DNA of 32,000 nt from Methanocaldococcus jannaschii DSM 2661 (GTDB lineage: Archaea; AGJL01; Methanococci; Methanococcales; Methanocaldococcaceae): positions 964,603 through 996,602 of the forward strand of contig NC_000909.1 of assembly GCF_000091665.1 (NCBI RefSeq), written 5' to 3'. The position numbers were made by a program, and so were the translations under genes. Below are positions 19,245-31,934 of the stretch, one piece after another. Below the pieces are notes generated by a model. That model had not been told where the DNA came from and searched no databases. It was given only the letters and a program-made list of their open reading frames with translations. Position 1 is the first letter of the stretch; every line of letters starts with the position of its first letter.

Positions 19245-21425
19245 ATGGGAAAAAGAGCAAAAATGATTGCTAAAATTAAGGAATTAATGGAAAAGTATGA
19301 CAGAATAAGAAATATCGGAATCTGTGCTCACATTGACCACGGAAAAACAACATTATCAGATAACCTATTAGCTGGAGCAGGAATGATTTCAAAAGAATTA
19401 GCTGGAGAGCAGTTAGCTCTCGACTTCGATGAAGAGGAAGCTCAAAGAGGAATCACCATATTTGCTGCAAACGTTTCAATGGTTCACACCTATGAAGGAA
19501 ATGAGTATTTAATTAACTTAATTGACACTCCAGGACACGTTGACTTTGGAGGGGACGTTACAAGAGCAATGAGAGCTATTGATGGGGCAATTGTTGTTGT
19601 CTGTGCAGTTGAGGGAGTTATGCCACAGACAGAAACTGTCTTAAGACAGGCATTGAGGGAGAGAGTTAAACCAGTCCTCTTCATCAACAAGGTAGATAGA
19701 TTAATTAACGAGTTAAAACTAACACCAGAAGAGTTGCAGAGCAGATTTATCAAGATTATCAATGATATTAACAACTTAATTAGAAAGATGGCTCCAGAAG
19801 AATTTAAAGACAAATGGTTGGTTAGAGTTGAAGATGGAAGTGTCGCATTTGGTTCAGCTTACAACAACTGGGCAATTTCAGTTCCATTCATGAAGAAGAG
19901 TGGAATTACATTTAAAGATATAATCAAGTATTGTGAAGAAGACAGGCAAGATGAATTAGCTGAAAAAGCTCCATTACATGAAGTTGTTTTAGATATGGTT
20001 ATTAAACACTTACCAAGCCCACCAGAAGCTCAGAAATACAGAATTCCACACCTATGGAAAGGAGACTTGAATTCAGAAGCTGGAAAAGCTATGCTCAACT
20101 GTGACCCTAACGGACCATTAGCAGGAGTTATTACAAAGATTATTGTAGATAAACACGCAGGAGCTGTTTCAGTTTGTAGATTATTCAGTGGTAGAATTAA
20201 GCAAGGAGACGAAGTTTATATGGTAAATAACCAGCAAAAGGCAAAGATTCAGCAAGTATCTGTCTTCATGGGGCCTGAGAGAATTCCAGTAGATAGCATT
20301 TCAGCAGGAAACATCTGTGCATTAGTTGGTTTGAAGGAGGCATCAGCAGGAGAAACAATCTGTTCCCCAGACAAAATAATTGAGCCATTTGAGGCAATAA
20401 CTCACATCAGTGAGCCAGTTATTACAGTCGCTATTGAAGCAAAGAACACAAAAGATTTACCAAAATTAATTGAAGTTTTAAGACAAGTTGCAAGAGAAGA
20501 CCCAACCGTTAAAGTTGAGATTAACGAAGAAACAGGAGAGCACTTATTAAGCGGTATGGGAGAGTTGCACATTGAGATTATAACAAAATTAAAGATTGAG
20601 AGAGATGCTGGAATTCCAGTTGAAGTAGGGCAACCAATTGTTGTCTATAGAGAGACAGTAACAGGGCAATCACCAGTAGTTGAGAGTAAATCTCCAAACA
20701 AACACAACAAGCTCTACTTTGTAGTTGAACCATTAGAGGAGAGTGTATTACAAGCATACAAAGAAGGAAGAATCCCAGACGTTGATACAAAGAGAAAATT
20801 AGATGATAAGATTGTTCAGGAGTTAATTAAGGCAGGAATGGATCCAGAAGAAGCTAAGAGAGTAATGTGTATCTATGAAGGAAACGTTCTCATTAACATG
20901 ACAAGAGGTATTGTCCATTTAGATGAAGTTAAAGAATTGATTATCCAAGGGTTCAAAGAAGCTATGAGAAACGGTCCATTAGCAGCAGAGAAGTGTCAAG
21001 GAGTTAAAGTTAAGTTAATGGATGCAGTATTACACGAAGATGCAATCCACAGAGGACCAGCACAAATGATTCCAGCAGCAAGATTTGGTATTAGAGATGC
21101 AATGATGCAGGCAAATCCAGTATTATTAGAGCCAATGCAGTTTGTTTATATAAACACCCCACAGGACTTCATGGGGGCAGCGATGAGGGAAATCAGCAAC
21201 AGAAGAGGACAAATCTTAGATATGGAGCAAGAGGGAGATATGGCTATCATTAAAGCTAAGTGTCCAGTTGCAGAGATGTTTGGATTCGCTGGGGCTATTA
21301 GAGGAGCAACTCAGGGTAGATGTCTCTGGAGTATTGAGTTTGCTGGTTATGAAAAAGTTCCAAGAGACATGCAAGAGCAATTAATTAAGCAAATTAGAGA
21401 GAGAAAAGGACTTAAATTAGAATAA
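19245..21425 (+). CDS. fusA: translation elongation factor 2 (aEF-2)
   Basis: 726 aa. GTPase motifs [17 protein letters not shown] and NKVDR. The diphthamide-loop context [11 protein letters not shown] is present. Confidence 0.96.
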
Positions 21426-21448
21426 ACTCTCTGACTATTATATCCTTA

Positions 21449-21458
21449 TTTTATTTTT
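21449..21458 (+). terminator. oligo-T tract downstream of fusA (archaeal intrinsic terminator candidate)
   Basis: ttttattttt lies 24 nt after the EF-2 stop codon. Archaeal RNAP terminates at T-runs. Confidence 0.3.
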
Positions 21459-21480
21459 AAGATTCAAGAAAATCTATTTT

Positions 21481-21549
21481 ACCCCCTACGGCCCACGCTC
21501 TCGACGTGGCAGAGCCAAGGATGAGAGAGGGTAGGATATAGGGGGGACA
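21481..21549 (+). ncRNA. candidate H/ACA-type guide sRNA (GC-rich K-turn hairpin followed by ACA)
   Basis: Lower stem 21482-21488 cccccta pairs with 21539-21545 taggggg. ACA is at 21547-21549, one nt (g21546) past the stem. Upper stem 21498-21502 ctctc pairs with 21525-21529 gagag. K-turn: GA 21503-04 opposite GA 21523-24, with 3-nt bulge gat 21520-22. Capping stem is c21505-g21519 plus tggc/gcca. About 9 unpaired nt on each side form a pocket. The element is a GC island in an AT-rich spacer. Confidence 0.45.
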
Positions 21550-21852
21550 TTTCTCATAAATAATTAATCTATTTTGTTGATAATAAGTTATCTCTTAATG
21601 TTAAATCACTCGGAGACTGAAGAATTGATAGTTTTTTGGAAATTTTTACACATATAATTTTCTAATCTGAGTTAATTTTTTCAACCTTACCAAAACTTTA
21701 GTTTTTATTCAAATTCTAAGCTTAAATAAATTTTATTTTTTGAAAGGTTATTTTTGAAAGACACTATGGCATTCTTTGAGTGTCATTATGCAATCAAACA
21801 TTTTTTCTTGCAGAAATCTAATTTAAATAATTTTATATGGAAAATTCTGGGA

Positions 21853-22203
21853 CTGTTAAGTTAACGACTTCACCCAATTGTAGAACATTATGGAGCTTTT
21901 TACTCAACTAACAACCGTATCGAATTTACTATTACTTGGAAATCTATTTAAAACCTCTTTAATCTTGTGATAATAAATTCTAATCGATTCGTGACTTATA
22001 TCTTCGAATTGGGAGGGGGATAAACCCACTTTCCTCAATGATAATCCGAGGTAGTATAAAAGCCCTGCTAAGATTTTAACCTCTATCGATTCCTATTCCT
22101 TTTAAAAAGCTTCCTCTCTACGATTTTCTCCTTTATAACTTCTATCATGAGCCTCATAGTTTATTATTTTTTATCAATATTTTGATAAAAACTTAACTTG
22201 ACA
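21853..22203 (-). mobile_element. 351-bp MITE-like non-autonomous IS derivative, copy A (transposase N-terminal remnant on the minus strand)
   Basis: It is the exact reverse complement of 25839-26189; I checked this base by base across all 351 positions. Its termini are imperfect inverted repeats (ctgttaagttaac... / ...cttaacttgaca). Confidence 0.85.
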
Positions 22204-22281
22204 ATCTCATCCTTATAAAAGTTAAACTTATATAATAAAACATTAAAATAACATTTTAAGATTTAGAAGAGGGATGGAATT

Positions 22282-22767
22282 ATGGTCATAAAAAAAATTA
22301 TAAAGAAGATTAGAGGAAATAAAGACTTACCAAAACCTATTGAAGTCCCTGATGAAGAGTATATAGTTATTGGAGAAGAAAAACCAGCTTATATATTAGA
22401 GGAAGAATCAGAAACTGAATCAGAAGTTTTAGGGTTAGAACATAAGGAAAAGGAAGAAGTAAAAGAAGTGGAAGAGGTTGTTAGAGTAGAAAAGATTCTT
22501 CCAAAATTGTATGTTGTTAGGATTAAACATCCTTTAGACTTTGAAAATATAAAAGATAAAATCCCAGAATATGACGTTGTAATTGTAAATTTTGAGGAAG
22601 TACCTTTTGAATCTATTTTAAAAGAGCTTAATGAATTTAGGGATTATATGAGTATTTTAAATTTTAAATTAGGGTTTGTTGCTGAGAATGTGTTGTTAGC
22701 TTATAGAGATGACGTGATATTGGATAAATATGTTTCAAATATTACGGACGATGCTGAAAATGTGTAA
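22282..22767 (+). CDS. SepF-like cell-division protein (tentative); otherwise conserved hypothetical
   Basis: 161 aa with three parts: an N-terminal basic amphipathic segment MVIKKIIKKIRG, an acidic E-rich linker, and a C-terminal ~80-aa domain (LYVVRIKHPLDFENIKDKI..DVVIVNFEEV...) resembling the SepF/DUF552 core. RBS GAGGGATGG. Confidence 0.45.
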   Translation: MVIKKIIKKIRGNKDLPKPIEVPDEEYIVIGEEKPAYILEEESETESEVLGLEHKEKEEVKEVEEVVRVEKILPKLYVVRIKHPLDFENIKDKIPEYDVVIVNFEEVPFESILKELNEFRDYMSILNFKLGFVAENVLLAYRDDVILDKYVSNITDDAENV

Positions 22768-22834
22768 AACTAATTAATATATAATAATTAATTATTTTAG
22801 TTCATTTTTATCTTGTTAATTTTTTGGTGGTTAA

Positions 22835-23368
22835 ATGAGAATAGCAATAACTGGAACTCCAGGAGTTGGGAAAACAACAATTTCAAAAGTTTTGAGAGAC
22901 AGATTAGGAATAAAAGTTATTGATATAACTGAGGCTGTTAAGAAATATAAGCTATATACTGAAAAAGATGAAGATATGGACTCTTATGTTATTGATTTTG
23001 AGAAATTGGAAAAATTTATTGATGAGATTGAGGAAAAAGAAAAAACTATTATATTAGATGGTCATGTATCTCATCTTTTGAATCCCGACTATATTATAGT
23101 TCTTAGATGCAATCCAGAAATTATCAAAGAAAGGTTAGAAAAAAGGGGCTATAAGCCAAAAAAGGTTTTGGAAAATATTCAGGCAGAAATTTTAGATGTG
23201 TGCTTATGTGAGAGTAAAGGCAAGGTTTATGAGATAGATACAACAAATAGAGATGTTGAAAATATAGTTGATGAGATTATTGAAGCAATAAAACATAAAA
23301 AAGAGAGAAAAGGAGTTGTAGATTGGACAGAGAAATACTTTGATTATTTAACTTTAGAAATTAAATAA
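22835..23368 (+). CDS. Fap7/AK6-type putative adenylate kinase (P-loop NTPase)
   Basis: 177 aa with Walker A GTPGVGKTT at the extreme N-terminus, DGHVSH, and short-form kinase architecture typical of archaeal Fap7 homologues. Confidence 0.75.
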   Translation: MRIAITGTPGVGKTTISKVLRDRLGIKVIDITEAVKKYKLYTEKDEDMDSYVIDFEKLEKFIDEIEEKEKTIILDGHVSHLLNPDYIIVLRCNPEIIKERLEKRGYKPKKVLENIQAEILDVCLCESKGKVYEIDTTNRDVENIVDEIIEAIKHKKERKGVVDWTEKYFDYLTLEIK

Positions 23369-24885
23369 TTCCCTAACAACAAAGCATCAAAATCTGCCTT
23401 TAAAAAGCTATTTATTGCATCTTTCTCATTGCAAACTATCGGCTCTCCATGTAAATTAAAGGATGTGTTTAAAACTACTGGAATACCTATAGAGTCATAA
23501 ATATATCTTATTATTCCGTAGAATGTTTTATTTGAATCTTTTTTTAATGTTTGAGGTCTTGTAGTTTTATCTACGTGTATAACCCCCTCAATTTCTTTTA
23601 TCTTATTCTCCTTAACCTTAAATATCTGAGTCATAAATGGGGAGTATCTTGGATTTATTAAATAATCATCTATAAAATCATACAGTATTGTTGGAGCAAA
23701 AGGCATAAACCAACTTCTTTTTAACTTTTTATTAATCTTTTCTTTATTTTCTTTTGTTGGTAAAGCTATAACGCTCCTATTTCCCAAAGCTCTTGGACCA
23801 AACTCCATTTTCCCTCTTGATAGGCAAACAACCTTATTATCTAAGATTAAATTTCCAATGACCTCTGGAATGTCTCTCTCTTCAACAAACTCTATCTTAT
23901 AATCATTGAGTTTATTTTTTAATTCCTCTAAAATTTTTTCAGCTCTTTCATTTTCAATTTCATATCCAAAGTATGTATTGTTTATATTTATTCTATCTAT
24001 TCTTTTATCGGCTAAGCTTGCTCCTAAGCAAAGTCCTTCATCTCCCATAAAAGGTGGAACGAATAGATTATATTTTTCAGCAATTTTTGAATTCAACTTA
24101 ACGTTTTGAGCCACTCCACCAACAAACACAATGTTATCTATGTTATATTCATTAGATAAATCATCAATTGCCTTTAAAACAATATTTTCTAAAGTTCTTT
24201 GAGCAAATTTTGATATTCTAACCTTATCCTCAAAAGATAATTGGCTTTTATCGCTAACTATAAGTTTTTTCAATGCTTTGGTAGCTTCATAGCCAATAAC
24301 TCCTAAATAATTTTTAAATGATTTTAATTCTTTTATATAGTCAATAGTTGTTAAATTTATATCATCTTCTCCTTCGTAAGAAGATAGAGACATAACTTTT
24401 CCTTCATCTTCCATAGGCTTAAAACCTAAAAGCTCAGTTATTGAGGCATAAAAATCTCCAACAGAGTCGATTAAATCACTTTGGGCTATAATTTCCAAGT
24501 TATTTTTATTTGCTATGGATGCCAAAAAAGATAAACCATCTCCTCCTCCATCTATTGAAATTACTAAAGCTTCTTTAAAATCTGAGAGTTTAAATAAATA
24601 TGAATGGGATATGTGATGATAAAAATAGAGAAATTTTTTATTTATTCTGTTTTGAAATTCTTTTAATTTTTTTATTCTCTCTCCTCTTCTAAAAACTCCA
24701 CCAACAGAAACATAATTAATTTCATCAGGTTTAACTTTGTTTAAAATATAATCTACTGATTTTTCTGGGAATCCTCTCTGATTTTTCTTTCTTGTAAATC
24801 TCTCCTCACTCATTGCAAATAGGATTTCATCTCTTTTTATCAAAGAAGAGCTTGCATTATGCCCATCACAAATTCCAAGAATCAT
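23344..24885 (-). CDS. NodU/CmcH/TobZ-family carbamoyltransferase-like protein
   Basis: 513 aa starting MILGICDGHNASSSL...SEERFTRKK, with the HH..H metal motif (FYHHISHSY) of the Kae1-like domain and a C-terminal YrdC-like/carbamoyltransferase domain (NTSFNLHGEPIV). Its 3' end overlaps the convergent kinase gene by 25 nt. Confidence 0.8.
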   Translation of the reverse strand: MILGICDGHNASSSLIKRDEILFAMSEERFTRKKNQRGFPEKSVDYILNKVKPDEINYVSVGGVFRRGERIKKLKEFQNRINKKFLYFYHHISHSYLFKLSDFKEALVISIDGGGDGLSFLASIANKNNLEIIAQSDLIDSVGDFYASITELLGFKPMEDEGKVMSLSSYEGEDDINLTTIDYIKELKSFKNYLGVIGYEATKALKKLIVSDKSQLSFEDKVRISKFAQRTLENIVLKAIDDLSNEYNIDNIVFVGGVAQNVKLNSKIAEKYNLFVPPFMGDEGLCLGASLADKRIDRININNTYFGYEIENERAEKILEELKNKLNDYKIEFVEERDIPEVIGNLILDNKVVCLSRGKMEFGPRALGNRSVIALPTKENKEKINKKLKRSWFMPFAPTILYDFIDDYLINPRYSPFMTQIFKVKENKIKEIEGVIHVDKTTRPQTLKKDSNKTFYGIIRYIYDSIGIPVVLNTSFNLHGEPIVCNEKDAINSFLKADFDALLLGNYLISKVK

Positions 24886-24896
24886 ACAAACACCAA

Positions 24897-25190
24897 TTAC
24901 AGCTCTCCAATTGCTTTTAACTTCCTTTCAATTGTGTTTTCTTTATCTTTCCTTTCATCAATTTTTAAACTGCTTACAACTCTATCAACGTCATTTAAAA
25001 CTGTTGAATGTGCTTCTTTAAAAGCTTTTAAAATTTCATCTAAATCTCCTTCTAATACAGTTCCCATAGCGTTTGTCTCAACCTTTAAATCATACTTTTT
25101 AAAAACTTCAATTGCTTTTTTAACATACTTTGAAACACTTGCTCCTTTTCCTAAAGGAATTATAGAAACCTCAGCAACGACTTTTCTCAT
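24897..25190 (-). CDS. UPF0045 / MTH1187-YkoF-like small protein (DUF77)
   Basis: VVAEVSIIPLGKGASVSKYV...VETNAMGTVLEG...VVSSLKIDER matches the family pattern. The track start at 25199 is a GTG inside the AGGTGA RBS, so ATG at 25190 is preferred. Confidence 0.75.
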   Translation of the reverse strand: MRKVVAEVSIIPLGKGASVSKYVKKAIEVFKKYDLKVETNAMGTVLEGDLDEILKAFKEAHSTVLNDVDRVVSSLKIDERKDKENTIERKLKAIGEL

Positions 25191-25254
25191 AAAAATCACC
25201 TAAAAATTGATAAAAATAATAAAAAAGCAAAAATAAAATAGAATCAAAATTTAA

Positions 25255-25746
25255 TTATTTCTCTAATTCACTTAAAACTTCTTTCAACTTCTCCTTAACC
25301 TTTTCTAATTTTGCGGCCAATTCTTCATTCTCTTTCTTAAGTTTTTCAATTTCTTCTTCTAACTTCTTAATGTCAGTTATCTTCTCTAATTCTTCTTTTC
25401 TGACAACAGCTTCTAAGAATTTTTCTACTTCTTCAATATTTAATTCCCCTCTCTTCATCATCTCATAGGTTTCCCTAACAAGCTTTCCTGCCTTTGTTTC
25501 TCCTTTTAAATGCTTTCTAATGGTTTGTTCAGTTCTTCCTAACTCATCTGCGATTTCTCTTATTGTATATCCAGCTTTCTCTCTTGCTAAAGCTCCTGCG
25601 GCAATAGCTAAGGAATCAACCCAAGTAACTTTCTCTATAGGGTCTTTTATTAACTCCAAGATTTCAGGTCTGAACAATGTTCCCAAAATTAAAACATGCT
25701 CTAACTTGTCTATTTCTGTCTTTGATGTTGGAACTAATGGTATCAT
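25255..25746 (-). CDS. hypothetical HTH DNA-binding protein with C-terminal coiled coil
   Basis: 163 aa. GYTIREIADELGRTEQTIRKHL is a classic helix-turn-helix. The last ~50 aa are heptad-like and E/K/L-rich. Strong RBS GGTGGGGGAG. Confidence 0.6.
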   Translation of the reverse strand: MIPLVPTSKTEIDKLEHVLILGTLFRPEILELIKDPIEKVTWVDSLAIAAGALAREKAGYTIREIADELGRTEQTIRKHLKGETKAGKLVRETYEMMKRGELNIEEVEKFLEAVVRKEELEKITDIKKLEEEIEKLKKENEELAAKLEKVKEKLKEVLSELEK

Positions 25747-25838
25747 GACTCTCCCCCACCTTATTTTTAATTATATTCCTTATATCTATTTTATAATTTT
25801 GCTTAGTATTTAAAGTTTTTGTAGATTTCAGAGGAGAC

Positions 25839-26189
25839 TGTCAAGTTAAGTTTTTATCAAAATATTGATAAAAAATAATAAACTATGAGGCTCATGATAG
25901 AAGTTATAAAGGAGAAAATCGTAGAGAGGAAGCTTTTTAAAAGGAATAGGAATCGATAGAGGTTAAAATCTTAGCAGGGCTTTTATACTACCTCGGATTA
26001 TCATTGAGGAAAGTGGGTTTATCCCCCTCCCAATTCGAAGATATAAGTCACGAATCGATTAGAATTTATTATCACAAGATTAAAGAGGTTTTAAATAGAT
26101 TTCCAAGTAATAGTAAATTCGATACGGTTGTTAGTTGAGTAAAAAGCTCCATAATGTTCTACAATTGGGTGAAGTCGTTAACTTAACAG
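25839..26189 (+). mobile_element. 351-bp MITE-like non-autonomous IS derivative, copy B (transposase N-terminal remnant on the plus strand)
   Basis: Reverse complement of 21853-22203 at 100% identity. It contains ATG 25885 followed by a 24-codon ORF ([24 protein letters not shown]), then a 62-codon open frame, shifted by one nucleotide, at 25950-26135 (..[44 protein letters not shown]..). This resembles the HTH N-terminus of an IS transposase. No catalytic domain is present. Confidence 0.85.
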
Positions 26190-26361
26190 CCTCTGGTATT
26201 GATAACGAAAATTATAAGTAATGCTATATTTACAATTAATTGTTGGAGGAGTAGTTTATTTTGGAGTTTATTTAGCTGTAATTTTATGTCTGAGGGTTAT
26301 CGATGTAAGAGAAATATAATAATATTATACAATTATTAATAAATAAACTCAGGGGATTTAA

Positions 26362-30026: not shown

Positions 30027-30042
30027 TTTTTTTGGTGGAATG

Positions 30043-31590
30043 ATGTGTGGGATAAATGGGATTATTAGATTTGGTAAAGAAGTTATAAAAGAAGAAATTA
30101 ATAAGATGAATAAAGCAATTAAACATAGAGGTCCTGATGATGAAGGAATCTTTATTTATAATTTTAAAAATTATTCTATTGGTTTGGGACATGTTAGATT
30201 AGCAATTTTAGATTTAAGTGAAAAGGGACATCAACCGATGGGGTATAATGTTGATGAGGATAAAATCATTTATAGAGATGATGAGTTGGATAGGGCGGAT
30301 ATAATCATTGTTTATAATGGAGAGATTTATAATTATTTGGAGTTAAAAGAAAAATTTAACTTAGAGACAGAAACAGGGACAGATACAGAGGTTATTTTAA
30401 AGCTTTATAATAAGTTGGGTTTTGATTGTGTTAAAGAGTTTAATGGTATGTGGGCATTTTGTATTTTTGATAAAAAGAAGGGCTTAATCTTTTGTTCAAG
30501 GGATAGATTAGGAGTTAAGCCATTTTATTATTATTGGGATGGAAATGAATTTATCTTTTCTTCTGAATTGAAGGGAATTTTAGCAGTTAAAGAGATAAAT
30601 AAAAAAGAAAATATTAACAAAGATGCAGTTGAGTTATACTTTGCCTTGGGATTTATCCCATCTCCCTACTCTATTTATAAAAACACTTTTAAATTAGAGG
30701 CAAGACAGAATTTAATCTTTGATTTGGATAAAAGAGAGATTAGAAAATATTATTACTGGGAGTTGCCAGATTACAAACCTATTTATGATAAAAAGAAATT
30801 GATTGAAGAAGGTAAAAAGCTATTATATGATGCTGTTAAGATAAGAATGAGGAGTGATGTGCCAGTTGGAGCGTTTTTGAGTGGTGGTTTAGATAGCTCT
30901 ACAGTTGTTGGAGTTATGAGGGAATTTACAGATTTAAGTAAATTGCATACTTTTTCTATAGGTTTTGAAGGAAAGTATGATGAAACTCCTTATATTAAGA
31001 TAGTTGTTGATTACTTTAAAACTCAGCATCATCATTACTACTTTAAGGAGAGAGATTTTGAGGAATTGATTGATAAATACAGCTGGATTTACGATGAACC
31101 GTTTGGAGATTATAGTGGATTCCCTACTTATAAGGTCTCTGAAATGGCAAGGAAATTTGTTACTGTTGTTTTGAGTGGAGATGGCGGGGATGAGGTTTTT
31201 GGAGGTTATATGACTCATTTAAACGGATATAGAATGGATTTCATTAGAAAATTACCTAAATTTTTGAGAGTTGTTGGTTCTAAATTACCTGTTAAGAAAG
31301 ATTTAAATGGAATTGCTAATTTGTATTTATTAAAGGAGGCGTTTAGGTTATCCTTAATAAATCCAGAGGAATTCTATGCTGAATCAATAAAAGAAGATGC
31401 GATAAGACCAGAAATTTATAAAAAATGGACTATTGAAAAATTAAGATATTGTTTGAATAAAGGAGATAATAAGTTGGGGGAAGCCCTAAGGATTTTTGAT
31501 TTATTGTTTAATACTTTGTGTGATAATTTCTTAGTTAAGGTTGATAGGGCATCTATGCTAACGCTTTGGAAGTTAGAAGTCCATTTTTAG
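30043..31590 (+). CDS. asparagine synthetase (glutamine-hydrolysing)-like amidotransferase, frame-interrupted near the 3' end
   Basis: MCGI N-terminal nucleophile Cys (class II GATase) and PP-loop SGGLDSS. The second ATG (30043) is preferred so that Cys follows the initiator Met, and because of GGTGG spacing. The frame ends at 31590 in the middle of the conserved DRxSM-x-x-LEVRxPFLD motif. Confidence 0.85.
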   Translation: MCGINGIIRFGKEVIKEEINKMNKAIKHRGPDDEGIFIYNFKNYSIGLGHVRLAILDLSEKGHQPMGYNVDEDKIIYRDDELDRADIIIVYNGEIYNYLELKEKFNLETETGTDTEVILKLYNKLGFDCVKEFNGMWAFCIFDKKKGLIFCSRDRLGVKPFYYYWDGNEFIFSSELKGILAVKEINKKENINKDAVELYFALGFIPSPYSIYKNTFKLEARQNLIFDLDKREIRKYYYWELPDYKPIYDKKKLIEEGKKLLYDAVKIRMRSDVPVGAFLSGGLDSSTVVGVMREFTDLSKLHTFSIGFEGKYDETPYIKIVVDYFKTQHHHYYFKERDFEELIDKYSWIYDEPFGDYSGFPTYKVSEMARKFVTVVLSGDGGDEVFGGYMTHLNGYRMDFIRKLPKFLRVVGSKLPVKKDLNGIANLYLLKEAFRLSLINPEEFYAESIKEDAIRPEIYKKWTIEKLRYCLNKGDNKLGEALRIFDLLFNTLCDNFLVKVDRASMLTLWKLEVHF

Positions 31591-31934
31591 ATTATAGGTT
31601 TGCAGAATTTAGCCAAAAAATTCCAACTGAATGGAAGGTAGATTTGTTCAAAACCAAGAAGTTGATGAGGGAGATTATTAAAGATATTTTACCTGAAGAG
31701 ATAGTTAATAGGGGAAAGCAAGGCTTTACTCCACCATTAGCAGATTGGATTTTAAAAGAAAAATATTTAAATGAGATTTTTGAAAAAGTTGAAATATTAA
31801 AAGAGGTTGATTATGAGTTATATGAATTCTTTAAAGAGAAAGTTTTTAAAAATAAAGAACAAAGTTTGTATAGGAATTATTTGATAAGGTTGTTTTTGTT
31901 TATTAAATGGTGGGAGAGATGGATAAGCCATTAG
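31557..31934 (+). pseudogene. C-terminal continuation of the asnB-like gene in the -1 frame
   Basis: Reading from 31557 gives ANALEVRSPFLDYRFAEF..., which continues the motif broken in the upstream frame (..VDRASM). This frame is open only from 31548, as there is a TAG at 31545-31547. Confidence 0.7.

What the first reader, a model, noticed from the sequence alone, without database searches (positions are those of the whole stretch)
21853..26189. Two 100%-identical 351-bp inverted repeats bracket a 3.6-kb five-gene cassette
21853-22203 is the exact reverse complement of 25839-26189. I aligned all 351 positions by eye and found no mismatch; identity stops within a few bases outside both ends. 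The 3635 bp between them (22204-25838) hold exactly five complete genes: SepF-like and Fap7-like kinase on the plus strand, and carbamoyltransferase, UPF0045 and HTH/coiled-coil on the minus strand. Their own promoter regions abut the inner repeat ends (78 and 92 bp away). Perfect identity over 351 bp of AT-rich non-coding DNA implies either very recent transposition or ongoing homogenisation. Homologous recombination between inverted copies would flip the whole cassette without disrupting any gene. The geometry also resembles a composite transposon, although the cargo looks like housekeeping genes.
Basis: seen in the sequence. Interest (0 to 1): 0.8.

Follow-up and report, generated by a model that had tools for sequence, protein, structure and literature searches.

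The report
Twin ISMja1-derived MITEs bracket relocated genes
The two identical inverted repeats are crippled short copies of a known archaeal jumping gene (ISMja1, IS6 family), and they mark the exact breakpoints where a conserved block of five core genes was moved away from its usual neighbour in Methanocaldococcus jannaschii; this is a clear but ordinary case of genome rearrangement driven by insertion sequences.

Summary
21853-22203 is the exact reverse complement of 25839-26189 (351/351), and four independent junction assemblies confirm it.

Each arm is a 360-bp non-autonomous internal-deletion copy (a MITE) of ISMja1, the IS6-family element of M. jannaschii, at 21849-22208 and 25834-26193. 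Each keeps the IS6-type terminal inverted repeats, about 71 N-terminal codons and 13 C-terminal codons. The DDE core is gone, and both arms share a frameshift.

The five genes are core genes. In four other Methanocaldococcus genomes the same block lies directly after glmS. In M. jannaschii it lies between EF-2 and MJ1054, and homology to the relatives breaks at the inner MITE ends.

A third MITE copy sits beside glmS, very probably in M. jannaschii itself. It carries the other half of an 8-bp target duplication (ATAAGGAT) that matches the left arm's inner flank.

No target duplication flanks the whole unit. IS6 compound transposons have direct repeats, not inverted ones.

All three differences between the arms lie in the 10 tip bases, which points to gene conversion between them.

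Flipping of the block is plausible. One scaffold shows the flipped order, but only across an N gap, so it is unproven.

Verdict: rearrangement mediated by IS/MITE copies. This is a new member of a known kind, of modest interest.

The parts
21849..22208 (-). Left arm: a 360-bp non-autonomous internal-deletion derivative (MITE) of ISMja1 (IS6 family). The transposase sense is on the minus strand. The outer tip is GGGAC (IRR end) and the inner tip is ATCTC, which is GAGAT at the IRL end.
   Evidence: Translation of the minus strand gives an IS6 transposase N-terminus fused to its C-terminus. It aligns with L006, P0002 and P0025. The element ends were defined from 29 related copies.
25834..26193 (+). 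Right arm: the same 360-bp MITE with the transposase sense on the plus strand. The inner tip is GAGAC (IRL) and the outer tip is GCCTC, which is GAGGC read inward at the IRR end.
21853..22203 (.). Exactly identical 351-bp core of the inverted repeat. Its partner is 25839-26189.
   Evidence: 351/351 complementary. There is no other copy in the window.
25839..26189 (.). Partner of the 351-bp core.
21904..22157 (-). Remnant of the 84-codon ORF of the MITE. It holds the H-HTH N-terminal part of the IS6 transposase joined to '[13 protein letters not shown]'. A 1-nt deletion near 22092 breaks the frame. The mirror copy is 25885-26138 (+), with the deletion near 25950.
   Evidence: ORF pieces were listed. 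The indel against L006 and L058 was seen. The intact version is P0025, encoded in L058. The N-terminus matches NF033587.
25885..26138 (+). The same broken 84-codon ORF remnant in the right arm.
   Evidence: This is the mirror image of 21904-22157, with the indel at 25950.
22209..22216 (.). ATCCTTAT, one half of an 8-bp target-site duplication of an ancestral MITE insertion downstream of glmS. The other half lies beside a third MITE copy next to glmS in L058.
   Evidence: In L058 the IRR end is followed by ATAAGGAT, then about 92 bp, then the glmS 3' end.
22217..25802 (.). Conserved five-gene core block (MJ1049-MJ1053 equivalents) with its own flanking intergenic regions. The genes are SepF-like 22282-22767 (+), AAA_18 kinase 22835-23368 (+), carbamoyltransferase 23344-24885 (-), Thiamine_BP/UPF0045 24897-25199 (-) and HTH/coiled-coil 25255-25746 (-).
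   Evidence: Pfam matches. The same block with the same internal arrangement follows glmS in L053, L055, L056 and L059. Homology to the relatives starts at about 22219-22221.
25803..25833 (-). Remnant of the last 9 codons plus stop (SEIYKNFKY*) of a 160-168-aa membrane-protein gene, here called X. X is the block's neighbour in FS406-22 and M. bathoardescens. The right MITE abuts this remnant, so it sits inside the former X gene.
   Evidence: Alignment. tblastn matches EIRKNFKY to EIYKNFKY at 25829-25806. No M. jannaschii homologue of X was returned.
21426..21848 (.). Outer left flank, downstream of EF-2. It shows no detected homology to the block's ancestral glmS-side context in the relatives' loci, and no target duplication with any other flank examined.
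   Evidence: The TSD comparisons were made on the flank sequences read.
26194..26361 (.). Outer right flank, upstream of the UDP-glucose dehydrogenase gene (MJ1054-type, with an intein). It shows no target duplication with the left outer flank (GAAAATTCT versus TGGTATTGA).

Best explanation
**What it is.** The window comes from Methanocaldococcus jannaschii DSM 2661. Each arm is a 360-bp MITE-like, non-autonomous copy of ISMja1, the organism's IS6-family insertion sequence (703 bp, 214-aa transposase). An internal deletion of about 342 bp removed the DDE catalytic core. What remains is the IS6-type terminal inverted repeats and an 84-codon ORF containing only the HTH domain, and that ORF is frameshifted in both arms.

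**How the structure arose.** The five genes between the arms are not cargo. They are a genus-wide core block whose ancestral position is directly downstream of glmS. MITE copies inserted at the two edges of that block. One landed in the glmS-SepF spacer with target duplication ATCCTTAT. The other landed inside the 3' end of the neighbouring membrane-protein gene X. Recombination at these ISMja1-family copies then exchanged their outer flanks. This could have been homologous exchange, transposase-mediated exchange, or both, and it took at least two events. The block with its two inward-facing IRL ends now lies between EF-2 and MJ1054. A third MITE copy stays next to glmS and holds the other half of the ATCCTTAT duplication.

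**Why the arms are identical.** The perfect identity of the inner 350 bp is best explained by gene conversion between the two inverted arms. Conversion cannot reach the extreme tips, which border non-homologous DNA. The same recombination should flip the 3.6-kb block from time to time. Because the block carries its own promoters, flipping would have little consequence.

**Shown versus inferred.** Shown: the identity of the arms, the relocation, the breakpoints and the split target duplication. Inferred: the order and mechanism of the events, the gene conversion and the flipping.
For: **Identity of the arms**
- The repeat is exact.
- The minus strand of the left arm translates to an IS6 transposase N-terminus joined to its C-terminus.
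- Full-length relatives P0002 and P0003 are named IS6 family transposase and carry PF13610. P0002 scores 144 bits on NF033587 against a cutoff of 125.
- ISMja1 is listed as IS6 family, 703 bp, 214-aa transposase, tips 'GA', from NC_000909 (PMC6807381).
- In 29 relatives the ends are 5 bp + TGTCAAG...CTTGACA + 5 bp, the length is about 702 bp, and 13 of 29 have perfect 8-9-bp target duplications.

**Source genome**
- MJ_1049 matches at 100%.

**Relocation of the block**
- The same five-gene block follows glmS in FS406-22, M. bathoardescens, M. fervens and an environmental contig.
- Homology breaks within about 10 bp of the left MITE's inner end. On the right it runs up to the right MITE's inner end, and the last 9 codons of gene X are retained there.

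**Split target duplication**
- L058 holds the same deletion derivative at 340/361 identity, with an intact 84-aa ORF.
- Its IRR end is followed by ATAAGGAT, about 92 bp, and the glmS 3' end. ATAAGGAT is the reverse complement of window 22209-22216.
- L058 comes from a mock community of sequenced strains (PMC4787001). Other contigs from that project match the window at 99.985-100%.

**Gene conversion**
- All 3 differences between the arms lie in the 10 tip bases and none in the 350 inner bases. The hypergeometric P is 1.6e-5.
- Other copies in the same DNA are 5-7% diverged from the arms.

**Precedent in a relative**
- In M. indicus, copies L036 and L047 share the split duplication GGAATAGTA, and 16 of 29 copies lack target duplications.
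Against: - Only one of the expected partner flanks was found (ATAAGGAT). The partners of the other three window junctions could not be searched, because the M. jannaschii chromosome is not in the searchable collections. The sequence of events is therefore not reconstructed.
- From MJ gene numbers that I recall (not tool-verified), glmS (MJ1420) and EF-2 (MJ1048) lie on the same strand. A single inversion then cannot explain the move. Three or more inversions or a true transposition would be needed, which makes a pure homologous-recombination history less parsimonious.
- That L058 comes from M. jannaschii itself is an inference from the make-up of the mock community. It was not shown directly.
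- Gene conversion was not observed. A single point mutation plus replacement of the outer halves could mimic the tip pattern, though only with further homogenisation.
- No read-level evidence for the two orientations was available.
Confidence: 0.6

Rival explanations
1. Composite transposon. Two MITEs flanking the block were mobilised together by ISMja1 transposase supplied in trans, acting on the two outward-facing IRR ends. The 4.3-kb unit transposed from the glmS locus into the EF-2/MJ1054 spacer, and the donor copy was later lost.
For: - The geometry is right. Both outer ends are bona fide IS6-type IRR ends and both inner ends are IRL ends.
- The block is relocated as a unit, with breakpoints at the MITE inner ends.
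- A full-length ISMja1 with a 214-aa transposase exists in this genome (PMC6807381). L006 shows an intact N-terminal 120 codons.
- The body of gene X is missing from the M. jannaschii protein set. This fits a later deletion at the donor site.
- If glmS and EF-2 are on the same strand (recalled, not verified), a direct transposition is the most parsimonious net event.
Against: - No 8-9-bp target duplication flanks the unit (GAAAATTCT versus TGGTATTGA). In relatives, 13 of 29 single copies keep perfect duplications.
- IS6-family compound transposons are 'invariably' flanked by direct repeats, because the family moves through cointegrates (PMC7986276).
- The outer tips differ (GGGAC versus GAGGC).
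- A MITE with the donor-side half of the duplication is still next to glmS, and its other flank is not SepF. This needs an extra deletion or recombination step.
Confidence: 0.2
2. The twin arms were made in one step by IS6-type intramolecular replicative transposition of the inversion type. A MITE in the glmS-SepF spacer attacked a target 3.6 kb away inside gene X. This duplicated the MITE in inverted orientation and inverted the block. Relocation happened later and separately.
For: [quoted passage not shown]
- It predicts the observed junction types: IRL-SepF, X-tail-IRL and glmS-IRR.
- It explains why the two copies are identical to each other yet 5-7% different from other copies.
Against: - The product, after a later flip by homologous recombination, cannot be told apart from two independent insertions.
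- The predicted second half of the X-site duplication (CTCTGAAA next to an IRR end) is not at the right arm's outer end.
- The tips of the two arms are not identical, although a replicative copy should have identical tips.
- The model does not explain the relocation.
Confidence: 0.12
3. Programmed invertible switch. The inverted repeats are recombination sites for regulated flipping of the cassette, which would control expression of the cassette genes or of neighbouring genes.
For: - Long perfect inverted repeats bracket a small segment.
- One scaffold (L139) shows the flipped order EF-2 - arm - HTH - Thiamine_BP - carbamoyltransferase.
Against: - No recombinase or invertase gene lies in or next to the unit.
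- The arms are decayed transposon copies with a broken ORF.
- The cassette carries both of its own promoter regions, which are conserved with relatives that lack the repeats. Flipping would therefore not switch expression.
- Relatives have the same genes without any repeats.
- The L139 link crosses 74 N, and repeat collapse could explain it.
Confidence: 0.03
4. Two unrelated, coincidental insertions of an abundant MITE, with no later interaction between them and no role in any rearrangement.
For: - The arms are MITEs, and at least three copies exist.
Against: - The block is relocated relative to four other genomes, and homology breaks within about 10 bp of the MITE inner ends.
- Neither arm has its own target duplication.
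- One half-duplication partner sits at glmS.
- Identical interiors with different tips argue for interaction between the arms.
Confidence: 0.05

Closest known systems
ISMja1 (IS6/IS26 family insertion sequence of M. jannaschii, ISfinder; 703 bp, 214-aa transposase)
   Same: - The terminal inverted repeats match (GAGnn-TGTyAAGTTAA...), with 'GA' tips as tabulated for ISMja1.
- The N-terminal 71 and C-terminal 13 codons of the transposase are present.
- It is the same host genome (PMC6807381).
   Different: - The arms are 360 bp.
- They lack about 342 bp that encode the DDE core.
- They carry a frameshift, so they cannot transpose on their own.
MITEs of the IS6 family (MITEBth2, MITEHarch3; 227 and 336 bp)
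   Same: - They are short non-autonomous elements that keep both IS6-type ends and lack a transposase (PMC7986276, PMC6807381).
- The size is similar.
   Different: - This one derives from ISMja1, and neither review lists it.
- It retains a recognisable 84-codon ORF with only the HTH domain. That ORF is intact in the glmS-adjacent copy (P0025).
- Only three copies have been documented so far.
IS26-type pseudo-compound transposons and translocatable units
   Same: - Two copies of an IS6-family element bracket a DNA segment that has changed location.
- Flank exchange between IS copies is a known property of the family.
   Different: - Those structures have directly repeated IS copies and an 8-bp duplication flanking the whole unit.
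- Here the copies are inverted, non-autonomous and lack an outer duplication.
Genome inversions and translocations bounded by IS copies in hyperthermophilic archaea (for example the IS6-family ISPfu elements of Pyrococcus furiosus; PMC6640164 found but not read; otherwise my own knowledge)
   Same: - Dispersed IS6-family copies act as portable homology for rearrangements.
- Split target duplications mark the events. A precedent is seen here in M. indicus L036/L047.
   Different: - Here the recombining copies are MITEs.
- The rearranged segment is a small block of five core genes.
- The two bounding copies have been homogenised to 100% identity.
Tn10/Tn5-style composite transposons (inverted IS arms)
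   Same: - The IS-derived arms are inverted, with their outer ends facing outward around a central segment.
   Different: - The element family is different. IS6 is replicative and forms cointegrates.
- The arms do not encode a transposase.
- No target duplication is present.
- The cargo consists of conserved core genes.

Membership tests
IS6/IS26 family (parent element of the arms) | DDE transposase matching the IS6 family model | tested here: met
   The full-length relative P0002 scores 144.1 bits on NF033587 (cutoff 125) and matches PF13610. The 120-aa ORF start in L006 scores 75.7 bits over model positions 1-106. The arm's own ORF (as P0025) matches only model positions 1-57, so the arms hold a fragment and not a transposase.
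IS6/IS26 family (parent element of the arms) | Short conserved terminal inverted repeats with a G at the tip and an internal TGT motif | tested here: met
   The arm ends are GGGAC/GAGGC-TGTTAAGTTAAC and GAGAT/GAGAC-TGTCAAGTTAAG. The same architecture appears in 29 relatives. The consensus 'cTGTt' and the G tips are described in PMC7986276, and the 'GA' tips of ISMja1 in PMC6807381.
IS6/IS26 family (parent element of the arms) | 8-bp direct target duplication | tested here: inconclusive
   In the relatives, 10 of 29 copies have perfect 9-bp duplications and 3 of 29 have perfect 8-bp ones. Neither window arm has its own duplication. One 8-bp half-pair (ATAAGGAT) is split between the left arm and the glmS-adjacent copy L058.
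MITE (non-autonomous deletion derivative) | Both IS ends retained, small size, no functional transposase | tested here: met
   The element is 360 bp against about 702 bp for the parent. Transposase residues of about 72-185 are deleted. The ORF is frameshifted in both arms.
MITE (non-autonomous deletion derivative) | Several copies with the same deletion, showing that the derivative itself has been propagated | tested here: met
   Three copies share the identical deletion junction (...KEVLN|RFPSN...): the two arms and L058. The total copy number in the chromosome could not be counted, because the genome is not in the searchable collections.
Composite (compound) transposon | Target-site duplication flanking the whole unit | tested here: not met
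   The outer flanks are GAAAATTCT and TGGTATTGA. No match was found at any offset, in direct or inverted sense (sequences).
Composite (compound) transposon | The unit has moved as a whole | tested here: inconclusive
   The block is relocated relative to four genomes, with breakpoints at the MITE inner ends. However, a MITE holding the donor-side half of the duplication remains at glmS. That fits flank exchange better than excision.
IS26-type pseudo-compound transposon | Flanking IS copies in direct orientation | tested here: not met
   The arms are inverted. The direct orientation is described as invariable in PMC7986276.
Product of IS6 intramolecular replicative transposition (inversion type) | Two identical inverted copies, with the new target duplication in inverted configuration (one copy inside, one outside) | tested here: not met
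   Inner-left against outer-right (ATCCTTAT versus TGGTATTG) and outer-left against inner-right (AAAATTCT versus TTTCAGAG) are not reverse complements. The tips of the two copies also differ.
Site-specific invertible DNA switch | A dedicated recombinase/invertase gene and a promoter or gene segment whose orientation matters | tested here: not met
   Pfam finds no recombinase among the five genes or their neighbours. Both promoter regions travel with the block and are conserved in relatives that lack the repeats.
Invertible segment by homologous recombination between inverted repeats | Both orientations present in a population | not testable with these tools
   Short-read contigs stop about 30-127 bp inside the arms. 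One JGI scaffold (L139) joins the EF-2 flank to the HTH side, but across 74 N. Reads or long-read assemblies are needed.

The most novel reading that the evidence does not exclude
The unit could be a working mobile and invertible module built from two non-autonomous IS6-family MITEs in inverted orientation. On this reading, ISMja1 transposase supplied in trans moved five core housekeeping genes about 350 kb within the chromosome of a polyploid hyperthermophile, and recombination between the arms keeps flipping and homogenising the module. The HTH-only 84-aa protein, still intact in the glmS-adjacent copy, could act as a regulator of ISMja1 transposition. Such a module would be an IS6 compound element of a geometry described as not occurring in the family.
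Probability: 0.12. Interest if true: 0.55.

Novelty: new member of a known kind. Interest (0 to 1): 0.33.

Why it matters
- The finding explains one of the longest perfect repeats in this region of a reference archaeal genome as transposon debris rather than a functional element.
- It dates and locates a specific rearrangement. A block of five core genes that follows glmS in the other four Methanocaldococcus genomes and contigs examined was cut out at two MITE copies and now follows EF-2.
- It gives a concrete example in a methanogen of non-autonomous IS6-family copies serving as portable homology for genome shuffling. A split target duplication serves as the molecular scar.
- The tip-versus-interior pattern suggests concerted evolution of repeats in a polyploid archaeon.
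- For annotation, the two arms and the glmS-adjacent copy should be labelled as ISMja1-derived MITEs.
- For assembly or strain engineering of M. jannaschii, the orientation of 22204-25838 should not be assumed fixed.

Tried and rejected
- **Structured RNA.** Rfam gave no match at gathering threshold over the whole window or at E<=1 over 21400-22300. The plus-strand fold has z = -3.8, but the protein-coding ancestry of the arms explains the sequence better.
- **CRISPR leader or 'long repeat' of M. jannaschii.** Rejected. No short repeats lie nearby, and the arms are clearly homologous to an IS6 transposase.
- **Copy count by a 31-mer scan of species-representative genomes.** No hits. The later protein-guided scan found the family only in M. 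indicus, sp. 28A and sp. 16A. The M. jannaschii chromosome is evidently not searchable, so the copy number is unknown.
- **Plasmid collection.** No DNA match. Protein matches were only to haloarchaeal and Bacillus IS6 elements.
- **Target-duplication tests on the four window junctions.** I tested direct, swapped (inversion by homologous recombination), inverted (replicative inversion) and outer-outer (composite) configurations. All were negative except the pairing of the left arm's IRL flank with the IRR flank of L058.
- **L006** (HTH flank joined to a 93%-identical ISMja1-like sequence) and **L146** (MJ1054 flank with 4 SNPs of the L058 type). I judge both to be assembly paths that slipped into other copies of the family, not real alternative structures.
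- **L139 flipped-order scaffold.** Kept only as a hint, because the join is a run of N.
- **Similarity of the other flank of L058 to relatives.** It is only a TATA-like ATTTATATTTTT motif.
- **Search for a gene X homologue in M. jannaschii.** None was returned.
- **glmS scan of metagenomes.** Only one close contig was found, and it has the ancestral order.
- **Kinase look-up for a reciprocal scaffold.** It gave no information on orientation.

Full report
**1. The observation.** Positions 21853-22203 are the exact reverse complement of 25839-26189, 351 of 351. The repeat finder extends the pair to 385 nt at 96%. A self-BLAST of the window finds no third copy. The arms have the same GC content as the window (0.316 versus 0.327). 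The 3635 bp between them hold five complete ORFs: a SepF-like protein, an AAA_18/Fap7-like kinase, a carbamoyltransferase, a PF01910 (UPF0045/Thiamine_BP) protein and an HTH/coiled-coil protein.

The window is Methanocaldococcus jannaschii DSM 2661. The SepF-like protein is 100% identical to MJ_1049 and occurs on a 1,664,970-bp contig.

Independent short-read assemblies reproduce all four junctions and stop 25-127 bp inside the arms. The repeat is therefore real and is present twice.

**2. What the arms are.** The minus strand of the left arm translates, with one frameshift, to [24 protein letters not shown] / ...[62 protein letters not shown].

A contig from another data set (L006) runs from the HTH-gene flank into a 93%-identical version of the element with an open frame. 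That frame continues into a DDE domain (...[29 protein letters not shown]...).

Searching with that ORF returns 208-210-aa proteins named IS6 family transposase from M. indicus and Methanocaldococcus sp. 10A, carrying PF13610. P0002 passes the NCBIfam IS6 equivalog model at 144 bits against a cutoff of 125.

The C-terminus of P0002 (...[24 protein letters not shown]) matches the tail of the arm ORF. The arm is therefore the IS with transposase residues of about 72-185 (about 342 bp) deleted.

Harmer and Hall list ISMja1 as an IS6/IS26-family element of 703 bp with a 214-aa transposase, 19/22-bp inverted repeats and 'GA' tips, from NC_000909, the M. jannaschii chromosome (PMC6807381). That is the parent element.

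Twenty-nine related copies fetched from M. indicus, sp. 28A and sp. 16A define the architecture. It is 5 variable tip bases (GAGnn), then TGTCAAG...CTTGACA, then 5 tip bases, about 702 bp in all. Ten copies have a perfect 9-bp target duplication, three have a perfect 8-bp one, and 16 have none.

Applying this architecture to the window gives elements at 21849-22208 and 25834-26193, each 360 bp. Both IRL ends (the transposase N-terminal side) face inward.

The arms are thus MITE-like non-autonomous derivatives of ISMja1. No Rfam family matches them.

**3. The five genes are a relocated core block.** In Methanocaldococcus sp. FS406-22, M. bathoardescens JH146 and M. fervens, the same five genes occur in the same internal arrangement. 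There they lie immediately downstream of glmS, in the order Lon - x - aldolase - UPF0147 - glmS - SepF-like. An environmental contig shows the same order (L059). None of these loci contains EF-2 or the UDP-glucose dehydrogenase.

Alignment of the boundaries shows two things:
- On the left, homology to the relatives' glmS-SepF spacer begins at about 22219-22221. That is about 10 bp from the MITE end, and it is where the relatives have the glmS stop codon.
- On the right, homology continues through the HTH promoter region to 25833 and includes the last nine codons and stop of the relatives' next gene. This gene, X, encodes a 160-168-aa membrane protein. The window reads SEIYKNFKY* at 25803-25833 (minus strand), against CEIRKNFKY* in FS406-22.

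The right MITE therefore sits inside what used to be gene X. No M. jannaschii homologue of X was returned.

**4. A split target duplication ties the left arm to glmS.** The intact 84-aa form of the arm ORF (P0025) is encoded on a 708-bp contig, L058. L058 contains a complete copy of the same deletion derivative, 340/361 identical to the arms, with tips GAGAC and ACCTC. Its IRR end is followed by ATAAGGAT, about 92 bp, and then the 3' end of glmS on the opposite strand. The encoded C-terminus...AVELGRDVDKPRGLAKSVTVE*, is identical to that of the relatives.

ATAAGGAT is the reverse complement of window 22209-22216, the eight bases that abut the IRL end of the left arm. Only a handful of flank comparisons were possible, and the neighbour is precisely the block's ancestral neighbour. 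I therefore read these as the two halves of one MITE insertion (target duplication ATCCTTAT) in the glmS-SepF spacer.

L058 comes from project PRJEB12287, a mock community of 49 bacterial and 10 archaeal reference genomes (PMC4787001). Other contigs from that project match the window at 99.985-100% over 3.9-6.7 kb. L058 is therefore very probably the MJ1420 3' flank of M. jannaschii itself. On that reading the genome holds at least three copies of this MITE, and the copy left at glmS now has a different sequence on its IRL side.

**5. What did not fit.** I compared the 8-9 bp next to each of the four window junctions in every configuration:
- each arm with its own direct duplication;
- flanks swapped, as after inversion by homologous recombination between the two arms;
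- the inverted configuration expected from IS6 intramolecular replicative transposition;
- an outer-outer duplication, as expected for a composite transposon.

None matches (sequences). IS6-family compound transposons are described as invariably flanked by direct repeats, because the family transposes through cointegrates (PMC7986276).

The structure is therefore not a textbook composite transposon, an IS26-type pseudo-compound transposon, or the direct product of a single replicative inversion.

The partners of three junctions must lie at other ISMja1-family copies. I could not search for them, because the M. jannaschii chromosome is absent from the searchable genome collection.

The same kind of scrambling is visible in M. 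indicus. There, 7 of 16 copies lack duplications, and the copies L036 and L047 share the split duplication GGAATAGTA.

**6. Why the arms are identical.** The two 360-bp elements differ at three positions, all within the ten tip bases. The outer tips are GGGAC versus GAGGC and the inner tips are GAGAT versus GAGAC. The inner 350 bases are identical. If differences fell at random, the chance of this pattern is 1.6e-5.

In relatives, the tips are copied faithfully within a subfamily. A fresh transposition would therefore have given identical tips.

Other copies in the same DNA are 5-7% diverged from the arms.

The simplest reading is gene conversion between the arms. Conversion needs homology on both sides of the tract, so it stops short of the element edges. 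Crossover products would flip the block.

**7. Orientation.** Short-read contigs cannot cross the arms. One JGI scaffold (L139) runs from RNA polymerase through EF-2 to window 21667. After 74 N it continues from arm position 101 through the right arm's inner junction into HTH, Thiamine_BP and carbamoyltransferase on the same strand. That is the flipped order. Because the join is a gap and the arm is a collapsed repeat, read pairs from the EF-2 flank into the left arm would create the same link. I treat it as a hint only.

Two other odd contigs are best explained as assembly paths that slipped into other copies of the family. L006 runs from the HTH flank into an ISMja1-like sequence. L146 has the MJ1054 flank plus four SNPs of the L058 type.

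**8. Most likely history and mechanism.**
- Shown: MITE copies sit at both edges of an ancestrally glmS-linked block. The block now lies between EF-2 and MJ1054. One half-duplication remains at glmS.
- Inferred: at least two recombination events at ISMja1-family copies exchanged the outer flanks. Gene conversion later homogenised the arms.

The exchange may have been homologous or transposase-mediated. IS26-type elements are known to exchange flanking repeats during targeted integration.

From MJ gene numbers that I recall (glmS MJ1420, Lon MJ1417, EF-2 MJ1048; not tool-verified), glmS and EF-2 are on the same strand. A single inversion cannot then account for the move. For this reason I keep composite transposition in trans as a serious rival (0.2). 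I also keep an in-situ origin of the twin arms by replicative inversion as a possible first step (0.12).

A programmed switch is unlikely. There is no recombinase, and both promoter regions travel with the block and are conserved in relatives that lack the repeats.

**9. Comparison with known systems and novelty.**
- The parent element is known (ISMja1).
- MITEs of the IS6 family are known but rare. Two are listed, at 227 and 336 bp, and this one is not among them.
- Rearrangements bounded by IS copies are commonplace in archaea.

What is new here is modest:
- recognition of a 360-bp ISMja1 deletion derivative with at least three copies;
- documentation that it bounds a relocated block of five core genes, with a split target duplication as the scar;
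- the tip-versus-interior pattern that suggests concerted evolution.

I rate it a new member of a known kind, with interest about 0.33.

Noticed in passing
window 21482-21546: A GC-rich hairpin of about 65 nt (CCCCCUAC...GUAGG..AUAGGGGGG) sits in the AT-rich spacer just downstream of EF-2. It folds at -32 to -33 kcal/mol, with z = -3.4 on the plus strand and -3.7 on the minus strand. It has no Rfam match, even at E<=1. It may be an unannotated small RNA or a terminator-like element.
   Followed up: partly
window 31557 (ORFs 30040-31590 and 31566-31934): Every independent assembly aligned across this site (L146-L153) has one extra G here. The extra base fuses the two window ORFs (516 and 122 aa) into a single 630/631-aa gene for an asparagine-synthase-like protein (GATase_7 + Asn_synthase). 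The window sequence probably carries a 1-nt sequencing error or a strain-specific frameshift.
   Followed up: partly
window 16578: All three assemblies checked base by base at this site (L139, L140, L141) read A where the window has G, inside the RNA polymerase A'' gene region. This is either a reference error or a laboratory-strain variant.
   Followed up: no
L022-L051 (M. indicus, Methanocaldococcus sp. 28A and 16A): In this Methanocaldococcus clade of IS6 elements the target duplication is mostly 9 bp (10 perfect cases) rather than the canonical 8 bp (3 cases). Sixteen of the 29 copies have no duplication at all.
   Followed up: partly
L036 and L047 (M. indicus chromosome, about 1,167-1,189 kb): Two inverted IS copies about 18 kb apart share the 9-mer GGAATAGTA. 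In one copy it lies on the IRL flank and in the other on the IRR flank. This looks like a split target duplication from an IS-mediated rearrangement. L046 has flanks TTAATTGAG / CCTCAATTA, which are nearly reverse complements of each other.
   Followed up: no
L049 and L050 (Methanocaldococcus sp. 28A): Size variants of the IS (about 507 bp and about 805 bp between tips, against about 695 bp) suggest further deletion and insertion derivatives of this IS family in a relative.
   Followed up: no
L058 positions 125-379: The MITE copy next to glmS keeps an intact 84-aa ORF (P0025). It consists of the IS6 H-HTH DNA-binding region fused in frame to the transposase C-terminal 13 residues. It could encode a truncated protein that binds the IS ends and acts as a possible transposition inhibitor.
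   Followed up: no
window 26223-26321 (+): A 32-codon hydrophobic ORF (MLYLQLIVGGVVYFGVYLAVILCLRVIDVREI*) lies between the right arm and the MJ1054-type gene. Several assemblies call it as a gene. Its significance is unknown.
   Followed up: no
L058 positions 1-30: The first 30 nt of this public contig contain Nextera adapter sequence (AGATGTGTATAAGAGACAG). This is adapter contamination in the deposited assembly.
   Followed up: yes
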